This document shows, piece after piece, positions 39,001 to 60,000 of a stretch of 64,000 nucleotides of DNA. The first letter of the stretch is position 1. Each line of letters starts with the position of its first letter. Made by a program: the position numbers. The stretch comes from Fimbriosthenelais zetlandica. Lineage: Eukaryota. The stretch is from NCBI GenBank assembly GCA_977030845.1, contig OZ365112.1:20274001-20338000 (forward strand). Direction: 5' to 3'.

Positions 39001-42000
39001 GGGCACGGTCTTTACTGTGTGAAAAAAGCTCATAGTTTAATCTTCTGTGGTGCCTATAATTACACATGATTATTTAATGAACCCTGTTCTCGAGAGACAC
39101 ACTTTAAATACTCCATCTTGATTAGGCCTAGAATGCCACATTTAAATCTATTTTAAAAATCGAAATTTTAATATGCATGTATCCTTCCTTCATCACTTCA
39201 TATTATCCTCATTGGTGGCGCCCTCAGTGGCTAGTCAGTGGAAACCTGTCTCAAACCGATGCTGCAAATACTGCCGGGCCGCCGCTACCAATGCGCCACC
39301 ATCGACAAAGGAACGAACTAACATATCGCAGTGGGATCGGAGGCTAGTGGTTCTAAATACAATCTAAACTGATTATCAACCATAACAAGAACTTTGATTT
39401 TATCAATGTTGCTGTATTTCCTTGTGTTTCCCTGACATTGTTGTTGGTTTTCTAATTTAGGCCTACCCATTTTCATTGAGGCTACATGCGAGTCTCTAAA
39501 AACCCATTGAAATGATTTGTAATTATACATGTAAACAGTATTAAATACTGGGATAAAAAGTATGGAAAATTGAAAATGTGAAGTAGGACAAGGTAATACC
39601 TAAGTACGGTAATGAAACTAAGAGCCAACAAAGTAGGCCTATTTTTGTCCGACATCAAAATTTATTTTTGCTTGAATTTGATTAAAACAAACACAATTAT
39701 GCTGGTAGTTATATGATTCCTCTTCAATAACAGATTATTTTTCTCAGGAATATTAGACTGACATACTTTTTGCCTATTGTTCTTTACATAGGCCTACTTT
39801 TCCAGTAGGCCTAGGCCTATTGAACATTATTGAGACGCCATTAGAATGCAGGAGAACGATGGCTTAAATTAAAAATGATTTTCTCAGTGGGGCAAGGGCT
39901 TACATAGGCCTAAAACACATATAGGCCTATCTACTCAACCCCGTATCAAAATCTCTCATAGGCCTACTTTGTTTCGGAATTAAAAACTTAGGCCTATAGC
40001 CTAGCCTATATTATGAAATATAATTTTTGCTCTCAATGTAGAAGAATACATTTTAATAGAATGGATAGGCCTATAGGGCCTAATGATTTAAACCTGCTAA
40101 AGAAAAATAATAGACCTAGGCTAATAGTGCTGGGGATGCACTGAGGAGAAGGAGGGATGGAGGGAGAGGGAAGCATGCAGTGAGCCTATATAGTTAGGCT
40201 AGGTGGGGTGGAGGGGTGTAGGGCGTCACCTTAAAATATCCCCATGTCTGAGGAAGGGTGATCCCCACCGTTATATTTTGTCAGTTTCTACGTTTTTCCC
40301 TATTTGCTGCAGGGTGATAGGTTATATAAGGCTTAGCCCAAGGCCTAATATAGGTCTATATAGGCCTAAACAAGTTAGATTTGAGTTCTATCTGTATTGA
40401 CAGCCCCCCACCCCTCTGGCATCTAATCACAGTGCAAGCCACAATTCGACAAAAATATTCAATCTGATTTATTTAGCTTAAAGAAATAACTCAGTTAGTT
40501 TGCATCCCCCGGCTCCTTTCCCTTCACCCGGTCAAGTGAGAACCCCCTCCGCCAGTGTCAGTGATCACCTGTTGACAGGCCTGGCCAGATACCTAAAACG
40601 CTCCAAACGGCTAAAGAACCCAATGTCAGCAATCAAGTTGACCTTAAAAGAACCATAAATGTTTATTTGTGTTTCCTTGAGAAAGGAAATGAGTCATATC
40701 CATTTAGAAATCAAGAAAACTAACAATTCTCAACGTTGTTTTGATGTATTTTGCCTTCGAGTCCGCCTGCAGCCAAGATGGCGGCCACTTCCGTAGCCAA
40801 TGACATCATCATCCGGGTACTTCTATGTACATCCAGGGCTTCCAGGGCTTCCAGGGCTTCCAGCAGAGCAAAGAGGTAAATTCATTTCGTCCGTTTTTTG
40901 ATCTCGAAAATAGTTATTAATACTTCATGCAGATTAGAATCCTTTGGTCAAAAGTTTCATTGTACATTCACAAACACCTGTGTCGCAAGAAATTGTAGAT
41001 TTATAAGCTTTTTATCGAAGTTATCGACGATTTCATTTGTGCACGTGTATCGTGGTAAAGAAAACGGGTCCCACTGCCAGTTAAGGTGGCCGGCTTATGC
41101 GGCTGTATTGATATTTGATGTCAAAAACTTATCCACAACTATATCCTTCTGAAATATTTATTGACAATTCACATGTCATTAAGAAGAAGGGACATTTATC
41201 TTTCAGTTTACATCAGTTGTAAGATGTTATGCAGGTCGGACATTCACTATTTGTGCTGTCACAGTCTTGTGTTTTGGGGCTAAATCAGTGTAGGCCTATA
41301 CTATTTTAACAGTGACAGAGCGCTGAGTTTATGATTTTATATGACATGTAGGCCTAAACTGCGCCCCTGTTCACGACGTTGTCGATTTCCTGCCTATGAC
41401 GTGTCAATAGATGCTATTTTGGGAATTTTTTTTTATCTTTGTTGTGAACGAAGGAAGACAGGACTTTAGACTTGGTGTTGTAGGCCTACATGTGGCTGCT
41501 TCTTAAGTCGGGAAATATTTATAAACATAATTTATCTGCTCTTCATGAAGTTAGTTTTTCTAAAATAGTCTAGTAATTTATACTGAAAGGTTACCATTTG
41601 TAATATTCAATCATTAATTCTAAAATTATACCTAACATATAATATGAATTATTATGGTACAATATATTATAATTTGTATGGAAATCTTATGTGTAGGCCT
41701 ACTATTTAAATTCTGCTTATTTTAATTAATGTTATTTCCGCTATTTTCCTAGGCCCACACCGCGCCCTGGTGTTCGATTCGATAAAAGATGAGAGAGCTT
41801 CATCCACTCCCTAGCGGCAACTTCACTCACTACTAATGTCAACAAACCATCGTGTACGATGATCGATGGACACACATACAATAATACAGGACCTAAATAT
41901 GTGAGTAACTTTGGTTTTCATTTAATTTTGGATGTCTTGTGGATGTCTACCACCTTCCAGGCATTTCCTGGCCAGAAATAACAATAATTAAAGCGTAGGC

Positions 42001-57000: not shown

Positions 57001-60000
57001 GCTGGGATTCAGGCGACAACTTCAGGTGAACAAAACGTGAAGCATGAACGACACATGCTTCAGAAGATGTGTGAATTTTCGCCAAATTAAAAGTAGGTAA
57101 TCCAGCAGCAGACTAATCATGCCTTACTTCCAGCAGCCGCGTAATCATGCCTTACTTCTAGCACCCGCCTAATCATGCCTTACTTCTAGCACCCGCCTAA
57201 TCATGTATGTAATGTATAGGCCTGCCTATAAGCTAGACCCCTATGGGATCTGCACAGTTAGGTTTATAGAAATCACATTACATAGAGCATTTACTCTTTA
57301 ATTTTTTATATATTTTTTTCCTGGAAAATCCTGGATCGGCTGAGTTAATTTTGTTTTAATATTCTTAAAAGTTATTTAAGAGTCAGGGGGAGGGTGAGAG
57401 CCTACTTGTAGAAAACTACTGAAGCAAGCTCCAGGTAAAAGCCAAGAGTCTCGGGGTGGGGGTGTAGTTGGTGGGGATTTTGTGGTCACATTTTTTCAGT
57501 CTTTGGTATGCTCAGAGGTATTCTTTACCACATAAGCCTACTGCTGATTCTGCCCTGATGGAGGCACATCCACAAATATACAATATATATCGGGAGATAA
57601 ACTTGGATAAAAGATTAGTACGAATCTACCAGCAGTCAAAGAGAGCGTCCCAGGGTCAGCTTGTTTTTATTAACATTAGTCCATCAGACACACACGGGCG
57701 GCGCCAACATGCATAGGCATACCTATCACCTGTTAATAATTAACACCTACAATCAATGCTCAGTTCTCAAAAAAGTTAGGGCCTATTGTATGCGTTGGAG
57801 AATTAATTATGTACTAGGCCTATATTGGAAATAATTATTTAACTCATTAATTAGATTTTTCCTGACCCGATAGATTAATCTTTGGTAGTCTAGTTAACTT
57901 TTGAGACAACCTGTCTGATGGTGTTTTTATTCAGGCAAATGAAGACAGCATGGGGACTTGATTTTCACCCTGCTTATTGCTATTAGTGCTATGAATAATA
58001 GATCTAAAAATATCTGAAATTAAAATATCAATGTCGGTTTTCGTAAAGATTTTGATACGGATACAGCCCCTATACTGTCGGGCCTGACCATAGCACTTCA
58101 TTTCATAATTTATATTTGAGTTTTTCTCTTATATGGTCTAGAGAGATCTACAATATTTCCTTCTATATCAATTCTGGTATAAGACTATATATTTAGGGCT
58201 AGATGCCCCAAGACCTATATGGGTCTATTTTCTAAAGATATATAATGTCTATCGTTTTAGTGATCTGTTTGGTGGTATAAATTCTTACTTTGCGCTTGTT
58301 GGTATTTTGTAACAAGATAGATCTAGGCCTATACCTCTTGGCCAAACTTTATAATCAGACGCCATTTCCTGTTCCCCATTGTTACCATTTACCACCCGTT
58401 GGATAAAGTTTGTTCAGCAATAATCTTTTGAGAGATCAGGGAGAATAACTTCCCAAGTGTTTAGAGTACTCCTGGGGGTGAGTGTGTCCATCCATCTTTC
58501 CACGTGGCAACCTGGCATAGAACTTTCTTATTGGTTGAATATTAAACCTCCTCCATTCAAGAGGTTGGGGTGAGGTTTGGTGGGGTGGGGGTAACTCCAA
58601 TTTTAATGGGATCCTTTCCCCAGTGTAAATTAGCTTAATTTGTGCCGCATTAATACGGACATTCTCATTGAAATATTTCATGGTACCTGGTTAAAACAGG
58701 TTAGTCCTAAATATTATCCCCAATTTTTCTTCCCTAAAATACATTTTACATAAAAAGTGAAAATATTAATATTTTATTGTGATGCATTTATTTCCACCCA
58801 TGGTTTAATATAAGTATCAAAAGTATAACAGTCTTTTAATATAATATTCCCCAACCCAACATGTTGTTGAACAATGTTTAGTGCCCCCGCCCCTTTGGAT
58901 GCTGAGGTAAGGAGGCCTGTGATTGGCAGCCCCTACTAAGACGCAGACGGTTCTAAACCCTGGAGATAGGTGGCAGGGGTTCAGAGATATCAGGGCTGGA
59001 CCAAGGGGAGAGAGAGAATGAGAGAGGAAGGAGGAAGAGGGCCGCCATCTTCCCAGCAAACCAAGCAGGAAACCCCCCAATACTAATTCCTTCCTCCTTG
59101 GTTTGTTTTTCGTTTTCAATTTTTGCCGAGGATTACTTTCTGTGCACCTCACCCACGGTCTATGAGTGAGTGGTTTGGAACCTGCTCCGCTGTTACTATT
59201 CCACCACACTGGCGAATCACGGTGAGCTGCTTGCCAAAATGGCTTCGTTAGCAGGGCTGGATTCTGCGGGAAATACATCGGTCTATCCCCAAGCCCAGCT
59301 TCTCAACTGGGTGTACCTGAACCTGACGGGGACGGCTGGCGGAGGTGGAGGGGCTGGAGGTGGTGGTGTCGGAGCGGGAGACGCGGCTCTAGCGGCGGCC
59401 GCCGCAGCAGCGTCCCAGGGACTCACTGGAGGAGGCGCAGGGGGTGGAGGGGCTGGGGCAGGAGCTGCTGGAGTTATACAATCCAACTCATCAGCTCTCA
59501 ATCTGAGCAACTCAACGGGTCAGAATGCCAACCAAGGTCCTGCGCTTAGTTTGTTCACTGATCCATGGAGCAACCCACCGAATGCTGGCAACCTGCAAAA
59601 TCAAAATGTTCTCTCCGGTCTCAATGGCATTAACCAACTACAACTAGCAGTGAGTATAATATACTTTTTTTTAGTCTGTAAACCTGTATTAATCGAGTTT
59701 TATGGCATTCCATCCCTTGATGAATATTGGGCGTGTCTTGTGTCAGATGGGGAAATGACATTCTGGAGGCAAGGGTGGGGTCCCAGGTATGTGACAATAG
59801 TAGGTTCTATATATATTTACGGTATATGCCTAGGCCTGGCATGTGATATCCTATGGGATGAAAAGCATATAATTAGACTATTGACCATCGAGTGAAACTC
59901 CCCTTAAGAATTTTCATCGTCTAACATTCAATTCTTCTTTTAATTACTTTATATCAATTCGATAATTATAAATAAAAGCCACATCTATCCATATATACCG

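What the first reader, a model, noticed from the sequence alone, without database searches (positions are those of the whole stretch)
40774..57205. A 16-kb predicted spliced unit built from duplicated exon+intron cassettes with no continuous ORF
Seen: a promoter cluster, then over 40 predicted exons on one strand. In the roughly 30 tandem units nearly every copy keeps TTTCAG, a GTA donor and a 65-66-nt intron, while exons have indels (71, 79, 86, 87, 95, 104 nt) and stops. Vestiges of a repetitive peptide (IQDFHAEVQD, IQDCHGEAQD, FIQDLHTKYQD, AQDSHTE; ADSKMIAEEVEE) occur in different frames. Inference: splice signals outlast coding capacity, so this is either a young lncRNA derived from an orphan repeat-protein gene or a recent pseudogene. 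Recent duplication alone could also preserve splice sites.
Basis: partly seen in the sequence, partly recalled or inferred. Interest (0 to 1): 0.65.

Follow-up and report, generated by a model that had tools for sequence, protein, structure and literature searches.

The report
Decayed tandem array of exon-intron cassettes
A short piece of an old gene, one exon plus its small intron, was copied head to tail about thirty times very recently, and the result looks like a many-exon gene but can no longer encode a protein.

Summary
Between 44,474 and 49,785 the + strand carries 30 head-to-tail cassettes. Each has a purine-rich exon-like piece (mostly 87 or 95 nt) and a 65-66-nt AT-rich intron-like piece bounded by GTA...TTTCAG. 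No reading frame survives: 33-35 stops per frame, longest open stretch 178 codons.

The inference that splice signals outlast coding capacity is not supported. Three 720-bp four-cassette blocks differ by 1-2 bases. Splice positions are not significantly more conserved than other intron positions (p=0.13 and 0.08). Exon and intron substitution rates on a tree are equal (p=0.22). Recent nested duplication explains the pattern.

A coding origin is plausible. The oldest cassette exon has coding-like codon usage, a 21-nt (7-codon) repeat persists, and exon parts are 40% GC against 24% in intron parts. The amplified cassettes show no coding signal and no homologue was found.

The rest of the locus (50-57 kb) holds other decayed exon families, a SINE-like insert and an 86-copy 28-bp minisatellite.

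Best reading: a young, neutrally evolving, satellite-like array inside a decayed lineage-specific repeat gene, non-coding if transcribed. Transcription, splicing and the organism stayed untested. Ordinary in kind; modest interest.

The parts
40775..40812 (+). Promoter-like motif cluster: AAGATGGCGGC, CACTTCCG, CCAAT, TGACATCA
   Evidence: Sequence read. The 11-mer is exact here and once more at 59041 on the minus strand, against 0.43 expected with up to 1 mismatch. Factor names are recalled. Activity was not tested.
40778..40875 (+). Possible first exon: an ATG inside the 11-mer, open to a donor-like AG|GTAAAT at 40876
   Evidence: Sequence; donor listed (crude score 3.6). Codon-usage score about -0.05 bits/codon, so not coding-like.
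42840..43085 (+). tRNA-derived SINE-like element between the promoter-like cluster and the array
   Evidence: Read. ARAGORN reports no tRNA. The classification is by eye.
44474..44576 (+). E01, the most diverged cassette exon. It is open in the acidic frame (...ADTADTKIVAEKEEADGDSEYQ).
   Evidence: Codon-usage score +0.39 bits/codon, above the control 95th percentile of 0.263.
44577..49785 (+). Array of 30 exon+intron cassettes with a monomer of about 153 bp
45908..48067 (+). Three copies of a 720-bp higher-order unit (188+66+87+65+87+66+95+66 nt)
   Evidence: Self-BLAST offset of 720. The copies differ by 2, 1 and 1 bases of 720.
48201..48370 (+). Cysteine-rich exon-like piece (QCHCQG...IQDCHGEAQD...) ending at GTAAGT. 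It is a longer paralogue of the 188-nt pieces.
   Evidence: No Pfam family, no word-sharing longer protein, Atlas best score 0.78.
48442..48540 (+). Exon-like piece DCDEMRAFQ..., a paralogue of 56978-57097
   Evidence: No Pfam family.
48628..48652 (+). Junction of a tandem segmental duplication of about 4.07 kb. Intron sequence is fused to the tail of E01 through a shared TCA.
   Evidence: Three-way alignment. Self-BLAST: 44565-45002 against 48639-49084, 95.5% identity, offset 4074.
49997..50222 (+). Exon-like piece with a 21-nt repeat, 4.4 copies at 50108-50200 (QDSHTE[A/D]). All three frames are locally open.
50223..50288 (+). Decayed 31st cassette intron; its acceptor is CTG
50395..50530 (+). 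tRNA-derived SINE-like insert inside an exon paralogue
   Evidence: Read. The paralogous pieces at about 50880-50977 and 51243-51346 lack it. By eye.
50880..52671 (+). Further exon-like pieces with GTAAGT, GTATGT or GTAAC donors (50978, 51347, 51712, 52671). This span includes FIQDLHTKYQD.
   Evidence: Most have stops in two or three frames.
53135..55683 (+). A 32-bp repeat (4.1 copies) followed by a 28-bp minisatellite (86.3 copies, 91% matches). Closed in every frame on both strands.
   Evidence: Frame reasoning from the unit sequence. The unit occurs only at 53305-57170 on the + strand.
55900..56797 (+). Second exon family (...GGKIEGKWGGGGGSIESVILQSK|GTAAC). Three of its four copies lie in this span; the fourth is near 52561-52670. 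Indels are not multiples of three.
   Evidence: Alignment A1.
56978..57205 (+). Last exon-like piece (DCEEM...), an ATTAAA at 57086-57091, then 3.8 more copies of the 28-bp repeat

Best explanation
The core of the finding (44.47-49.79 kb) is a young, satellite-like tandem array. Its roughly 153-bp monomer is a fossil exon-intron cassette: an 87-95-nt purine-rich piece derived from an exon and a 65-66-nt AT-rich piece derived from an intron.

The array grew by nested duplication:
- monomer copies, probably by unequal crossing-over or replication slippage;
- a four-cassette 720-bp higher-order unit, copied three times almost without change;
- a tandem segmental duplication of about 4.07 kb, joined through a 3-bp microhomology.

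The source was most likely an internal exon of a lineage-specific gene for an acidic repeat protein. The version that was amplified already carried a stop or frameshift. The array therefore cannot encode a protein when all its pieces are spliced together.

The remainder of the locus (50-57 kb) is made of other decayed paralogous exon families, a SINE-like insertion and a 28-bp minisatellite.

If the promoter-like cluster at 40.78 kb is active, the product is a non-coding or nonsense-bearing multi-exon RNA. The uniform GTA...TTTCAG motifs and intron length reflect how recent the copying is, not selection on splicing.

Shown: the anatomy, the duplication layers, the loss of frame and the absence of any selection signal. 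Inferred: the coding origin, the mechanism of amplification and any transcription.
For: Anatomy:
- 30 cassettes with uniform boundaries.
- Nested self-similarity at offsets of 153, 720 and 4074 bp.
- The three 720-bp units differ by 1-2 of 720 bases.
- Duplication junction with a shared TCA.

Loss of coding:
- The acidic frame has TAA in all 11 exons of 87 nt. The other frame is closed by an 8-nt insert in all 5 exons of 95 nt.
- 33-35 stops per frame over 1094 codons; longest open stretch 178 codons.
- The 17 variable columns of the 8 distinct 87-nt exons split 7:6:4, 6:4:7 and 4:7:6 over codon positions in the three frames.
- Codon usage of the best open frames averages 0.065 bits/codon. Non-coding controls give 0.093 +/- 0.10 and 26 real flanking exons give 0.21.

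No selection on splice motifs or exons.

Coding origin:
- E01 scores +0.39 bits/codon.
- A 21-nt, 7-codon repeat.
- Exon parts: 40% GC, 61% purine. Intron parts: 24% GC.

Decay elsewhere in the locus:
- The second exon family has non-triplet indels.
- A SINE-like insert lies inside an exon paralogue.

No relatives found:
- 15 of 15 exon or ORF translations from the locus have no Pfam family at the curated cut-off.
- phmmer of a 144-aa two-unit ORF against 1.84 billion representatives gave 2 hits below 1e-3 and none below 1e-10. Both are unrelated repeat proteins.
Against: Pairwise distances among 20 cassettes are lower in exon parts (0.066) than in intron parts (0.097-0.12), in 151 of 190 pairs. 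That could mean constraint on the exons, but it disappears when shared ancestry is allowed for.

Intron length is very uniform: 2 gapped columns of 67 in introns against 24 of 101 in exons. The independent indel events are few.

An exact AAGATGGCGGC with neighbouring promoter-type motifs sits upstream on the same strand, so the locus may well be transcribed and could have a function as RNA.

The locus from 44.2 to 57.8 kb holds none of the 31 TAGGCCTA octamers that are common in the intergenic DNA nearby, as in genic stretches.

A 178-codon open path exists in the second block.

The negative protein searches are weak. The window's own ZCCHC24-like and FRAS1-like exons also found nothing in the word-indexed library, so this organism's proteins may not be findable there.
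Confidence: 0.6

Rival explanations
1. A functional spliced long non-coding RNA. The cassettes are real exons and minimal introns kept by selection. The repeated purine-rich exons are the working part, for example as a platform for RNA-binding proteins.
For: A promoter-like cluster lies on the same strand. Boundaries are uniform. Exon parts carry 4.3 purine-rich GAR hexamers per 100 nt against 1.3 in intron parts. Exon pairwise distance is lower than intron distance. There is no coding signal.
Against: Splice positions are not significantly more conserved than the rest of the intron. Exon and intron rates are equal on a tree. By a crude, recalled consensus matrix the cassette donors lack G at +5 (median at the 92nd percentile of 824 GT sites) and the acceptors have a weak pyrimidine tract (60th percentile of 1144 AG sites). 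The copies are too young to carry information about selection.
Confidence: 0.2
2. A protein-coding gene after all. An isoform that skips some exons, or the second block alone, encodes a basic, tryptophan-rich repeat protein (AWTWTKVLGYWKTKWFVKRRKNMEYQNT) in a frame overprinted on the old acidic frame.
For: That frame is open in 11 of 11 exons of 87 nt and keeps phase between them. A 178-codon open path runs from 48746 to 49682 with all pieces included. The same frame is also open through the intron parts, giving unspliced ORFs of up to 144 aa.
Against: There is no codon-position bias (6:4:7). Codon usage is about 0.0 bits/codon, as in non-coding DNA. The frame is closed in every 95-nt exon. 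The minus strand also has whole-unit ORFs of 117-134 aa, so open frames here come cheaply from base composition. No homologue was found.
Confidence: 0.05
3. An ordinary satellite or minisatellite with no genic origin. The GTA and TTTCAG motifs are chance features of one monomer, multiplied by amplification.
For: The monomer of 153 bp with a higher-order structure is typical of satellites. The motifs are not independent. Acceptor scores are mediocre. Three further tandem repeats lie in the same locus.
Against: GC content changes sharply within the monomer exactly at the motifs, 40% against 24%. The diverged flanking copies E01 and E22 keep an open acidic frame, and E01 has coding-like usage. 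The plus strand has 22 donor-like GT sites scoring 2 or more against 7 on the minus strand. The monomer is found nowhere else in the window.
Confidence: 0.1
4. Part of the array is an assembly artefact. The three nearly identical 720-bp units may be an over-expansion or a collapse error.
For: They are 99.7-99.9% identical.
Against: The copies differ at 1-2 positions, and the other cassettes are 4-17% diverged. So most of the array is real whatever the true copy number.
Confidence: 0.05

Closest known systems
Iterated exon-intron modules in repeat-protein genes, such as spider MaSp2 and flagelliform spidroin genes
   Same: [quoted passage not shown] The structure is attributed to unequal crossing-over and slippage. 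Source: passages of PMC9779670 read, which give a mean intron similarity of 97.6%.
   Different: Those exons keep one reading frame and encode the repeat protein. Here exon lengths are 71-188 nt with stops in every frame, and no expression is known.
SNORD116/SNORD115 host-gene arrays (tandem non-coding exons with intronic snoRNAs)
   Same: Tandem units, each made of a non-coding exon and an intron. Source: abstracts of PMC4742849 and PMC12429941 in the listing.
   Different: The payload there is a C/D snoRNA in each intron. Here no Rfam family reaches its gathering score. One sub-threshold hit lies outside the array. The four intron pieces that were folded are no more structured than shuffles, with z from -1.28 to +1.96.
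Satellite DNA with higher-order repeats
   Same: A monomer of about 153 bp, a 720-bp higher-order unit and near-identity between those units.
   Different: This is a 5-kb array between genes, built from a gene fragment, and seen at one place only in this window. Genome-wide distribution was not testable.
Tandem exon duplication and mutually exclusive exon clusters
   Same: Neighbouring duplicated exons with their splice sites. This comparison rests on recalled general knowledge; one search was a search listing only.
   Different: Such exons share length and frame so that one can replace another. Here they do not.

Membership tests
Iterated exon-intron repeat-protein gene (spidroin type) | Tandem units of one exon plus one homogenised intron | tested here: met
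   30 units. 28 of 30 introns are 65-66 nt, and the intron alignment is nearly gap-free.
Iterated exon-intron repeat-protein gene (spidroin type) | Exons keep one frame and encode the repeat | tested here: not met
   stops in all frames, and exon lengths are not phase-compatible.
Iterated exon-intron repeat-protein gene (spidroin type) | Expressed as mRNA | not testable with these tools
   No transcript data were available.
snoRNA or mirtron host-gene array | Each intron carries a structured small RNA | tested here: not met
   No Rfam family at gathering score. At E up to 1 there is one hit, snoU85 with 25.2 bits against a cut-off of 41, lying in the 32-bp repeat. The four introns folded gave z of +1.96, +1.96, -1.28 and -0.09.
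Satellite DNA with higher-order repeats | Head-to-tail monomers with a higher-order unit | tested here: met
Satellite DNA with higher-order repeats | The family occurs in long arrays or at many loci | not testable with these tools
   Only this window is held. There is no copy outside 44.3-50.4 kb.
Protein-coding gene | A long open frame across the spliced exons | tested here: not met
   The longest open stretch is 178 of 1094 codons.
Protein-coding gene | Substitutions or codon usage typical of coding sequence | tested here: not met
   Only E01, and weakly four other pieces, reach the level of real exons.
Protein-coding gene | Homologous proteins | tested here: inconclusive
   None were found. 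The control searches with flanking genes also found nothing.
Spliced long non-coding RNA | Transcribed and spliced | not testable with these tools
   Only motif-level evidence is available.

The most novel reading that the evidence does not exclude
The array is transcribed from the promoter-like cluster at 40.78 kb and spliced cassette by cassette. The result would be an RNA whose body is a higher-order-repeat satellite made of self-contained exon-intron modules. Each module would have a purine-rich, enhancer-like exon and a minimal 66-nt intron. Such an RNA could bind splicing factors in bulk. It could also be the birthplace of a new basic, tryptophan-rich open frame (178 codons in the second block) overprinted on a dead acidic repeat gene.
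Probability: 0.12. Interest if true: 0.6.

Novelty: new member of a known kind. Interest (0 to 1): 0.3.

Why it matters
If the main reading is right, this is a clear but ordinary case of a repeat gene dissolving into a tandem array. It shows that an exon-intron cassette can seed a satellite-like higher-order repeat. It also warns that uniform splice motifs in young duplicates say nothing about function.

It would matter more only if RNA data showed regular splicing of the array, or translation of the overprinted frame.

Tried and rejected
snoRNA or mirtron host idea: rejected. tRNA genes: none.

Protein homology, one contiguous exon or ORF at a time:
- Pfam on 15 translations from the locus gave nothing at the curated cut-off. 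Only sub-threshold CENP-M and ATG11 appeared for the repeat ORFs.
- phmmer of the 144-aa ORF gave two unrelated repeat proteins.
- The word-index search of the 76-aa cysteine-rich exon among longer proteins gave nothing.
- The Atlas gave a best score of 0.78 and a recognition value of 1119, at the level of shuffled sequences.

Identifying the organism and calibrating the library:
- The FRAS1-like 371-aa exon found nothing; only proteins of 651-2000 aa were searched.
- ZCCHC24-like exon 1 found nothing.

Pairwise exon-versus-intron distances suggested exon constraint. This was rejected after tree-based counting.

Minus-strand reading. Whole-unit ORFs exist. There are only 7 donor-like GT sites scoring 2 or more against 22 on the plus strand, no Pfam family, and all neighbouring genes are on the plus strand. 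Not pursued further.

Literature. Searches gave no description of a decayed exon-intron cassette array. One search (TAGGCCTA) returned only primers and unrelated sites. These five searches do not show that such arrays are not in print.

The splice-site matrix used was typed from recalled consensus frequencies. It serves for ranking only.

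
Full report
**Context**

The window has no N and reads as compact metazoan DNA. All recognised genes lie on the + strand:
- A FRAS1/FREM-like matrix gene at about 4.8-26.7 kb, with VWC, Cadherin_3 and Calx-beta above cut-off and Furin-like_2 below it.
- A methionine adenosyltransferase gene at 35.2-37.3 kb, with S-AdoMet_synt_M and S-AdoMet_synt_C.
- A ZCCHC24-like gene from 59,239, with zf-CCHC_2 at 7e-12 and Zn_ribbon_3CxxC_2 at 1e-27.

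I do not take the contig for human. These three genes sit within 64 kb, with introns in the hundreds of bases as read from the ORF spacing. The organism was not identified.

**The observation**

TRF reports 153-bp arrays between 45.0 and 49.8 kb, a 21-bp repeat at 50108-50200, a 32-bp repeat at 53135-53268, a 28-bp minisatellite of 86 copies at 53268-55683, and 3.8 more copies of that unit at 57101-57205.

A scan for AG|GT...(55-85 nt)...YAG found 30 intron-like pieces from 44577 to 49785. Of these, 28 of 30 are 65-66 nt, 28 of 30 end in TTTCAG, 29 of 30 start with GTA, and 29 of 30 follow CAG. A 31st copy at 50223 has lost its AG.

The pieces between them are 71-188 nt, with one composite stretch of 450 nt. 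The promoter-type motif cluster at 40775-40812 is also there.

**Reading frames**

All protein searches used single contiguous exon or ORF translations. Frame continuity was judged by walking the genomic coordinates of the exon-like pieces and printing only lengths.
- The 33 pieces total 3283 nt and carry 33-35 stops in each frame.
- The longest open stretch is 178 codons (48746-49682). The next are 111, 108 and 103.
- The frame that gives the acidic peptide (...EDEMVCEKKEEYGISEYQ, ending on a phase-0 donor) has TAA in all 11 exons of 87 nt.
- A second frame (AWTWTKVLGYWKTKWFVKRRKNMEYQNT) is open in all 11 of those exons, but an 8-nt insert closes it in all 5 exons of 95 nt.
- The whole 153-bp unit is also open without splicing in that second frame (ORFs up to 144 aa) and in one minus-strand frame (117-134 aa). 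Open frames are therefore cheap in this base composition.

**Tests for coding**
- Among the 8 distinct 87-nt exons, the 17 variable columns fall 7:6:4, 6:4:7 and 4:7:6 over codon positions in the three frames.
- A codon-usage score was trained on 26 coding segments of the flanking genes. Real exons scored 0.21 bits/codon in frame, and the true frame was the best frame in 25 of 26.
- The best open frames of 23 pieces from the locus averaged 0.065. This matches non-coding controls (0.093 +/- 0.10, from the 512 of 2000 sampled segments that had an open frame).
- Only E01 (+0.39) exceeds the control 95th percentile of 0.263. E26, 56191-56366, 48441-48540 and E04 reach 0.19-0.24. The 87-nt exons score about 0.0.

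**Tests for selection on splicing**
- Across the 19 distinct introns, the core GT/AG columns are variable in 1 of 4 cases against 41 of 62 elsewhere (p=0.13). The single variable core column is an alignment effect of the 73-nt intron.
- The twelve extended splice positions are variable in 5 of 12 cases against 37 of 54 (p=0.08).
- Pairwise distances among 20 cassettes looked lower in exons (0.066) than in introns (0.097-0.12).
- Parsimony counts on a tree of 15 distinct units, with E04 left out, give 33 changes in 77 exon columns against 67 in 130 intron columns (p=0.22).
- Gapped columns are more frequent in exons (24 of 101) than in introns (2 of 67). These trace to a handful of events.
- By a crude matrix typed from recalled metazoan consensus frequencies, cassette donors (GTAYAT, no G at +5) rank at the 92nd percentile of all 824 GT sites in the locus. 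Acceptors rank only at the 60th percentile of 1144 AG sites.

**How the array was built**
- Self-comparison shows nested layers at offsets of 153, 304, 457, 720, 1440 and 4074 bp.
- The 720-bp unit of four cassettes occurs three times, with 2, 1 and 1 differences.
- A tandem duplication of about 4.07 kb has its junction near 48640. There the intron that follows the DCDEM exon-like piece runs into the tail of E01 through a shared TCA. The flanks of this duplication are 95.5% identical.
- The exon alignment shows that the 87- and 95-nt pieces are shortened derivatives of a 172- or 188-nt piece that carries IQDFHAEVQD.

**Signs of a genic origin**
- Exon parts are 40% GC and 61% purine, with 4.3 GAR hexamers per 100 nt. 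Intron parts are 24% GC with 1.3 per 100 nt.
- The most diverged copies keep the acidic frame.
- The QDSHTE repeat has a period of 21 nt.

**The rest of the locus**
- A second exon family, ending ...VILQSK|GTAAC, has four copies with non-triplet indels.
- A third family lies around 50.3-51.35 kb and 53.04 kb. One of its copies is interrupted by a tRNA-derived SINE-like element (by eye).
- The 28-bp minisatellite is closed in all frames on both strands, by reasoning from the unit.

**Other possibilities**
- There are no Rfam families at gathering score. One sub-threshold hit lies in the 32-bp repeat.
- There are no tRNA genes.
- The intron and exon pieces that were folded are not more structured than shuffles.
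- No protein relatives were found. Control searches with the flanking genes were equally empty, so these negatives are weak.

**Comparison with what is known**

The architecture matches the iterated exon-intron modules with homogenised introns described for spidroin genes (passages of PMC9779670), but without their coding frame. It resembles the SNORD116-type arrays of non-coding exons (abstracts), but without an intronic small RNA. It also has the formal features of a satellite with higher-order repeats.

I file it as a new member of a known kind: tandem amplification of an exon-intron cassette, here in a decayed state.

**What stayed unchecked**
- Transcription, splicing and translation.
- The orthologous locus in relatives.
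- Genome-wide copies of the monomer.
- Correctness of the assembly.
- The organism.

No paper supplements were consulted.

Noticed in passing
Whole window; dense at 33.0-33.7 kb and 39.1-44.2 kb: The palindromic octamer TAGGCCTA occurs 32 times against 0.92 expected. 25 copies lie in 27.0-44.2 kb, 3 in the FRAS1-like gene span and none in 44.2-57.8 kb. It is not part of an obvious longer repeat. Unexplained.
   Followed up: partly
59041-59051, minus strand: A second exact AAGATGGCGGC lies about 190 nt upstream of the ZCCHC24-like start codon, pointing towards the locus under study. The two copies face each other across the 18-kb interval.
   Followed up: no
53268-55683 and 57101-57205: A 28-bp minisatellite of 86 copies at 91% matches. 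Many units contain an acceptor-like TTCCAG and the consensus unit has no GT. The unit is found on the + strand only.
   Followed up: partly
4.8-26.7 kb, + strand: A large FRAS1/FREM-like extracellular matrix gene with VWC, Cadherin_3 (CSPG-type) and Calx-beta domains.
   Followed up: partly
42840-43085 and 50395-50530: Two tRNA-derived SINE-like elements of different sequence. ARAGORN calls no tRNA. The second interrupts an exon-like paralogue.
   Followed up: no
283-481: A 60-bp tandem repeat, 3.3 copies at 97% matches. It gives repetitive ORFs on the minus strand.
   Followed up: no
about 41800-41840 and 51205-51245: A shared stretch of about 25 nt (...CTCCCTAGCGGCA.CTTCACTCACT...) occurs in two exon-like places of the locus. 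It was seen by eye.
   Followed up: no
44.3-50.4 kb, both strands: The 153-bp monomer (51 codons) is open end to end in one frame on each strand. This gives unspliced ORFs of up to 144 aa on the + strand and 134 aa on the minus strand, with no family match.
   Followed up: yes
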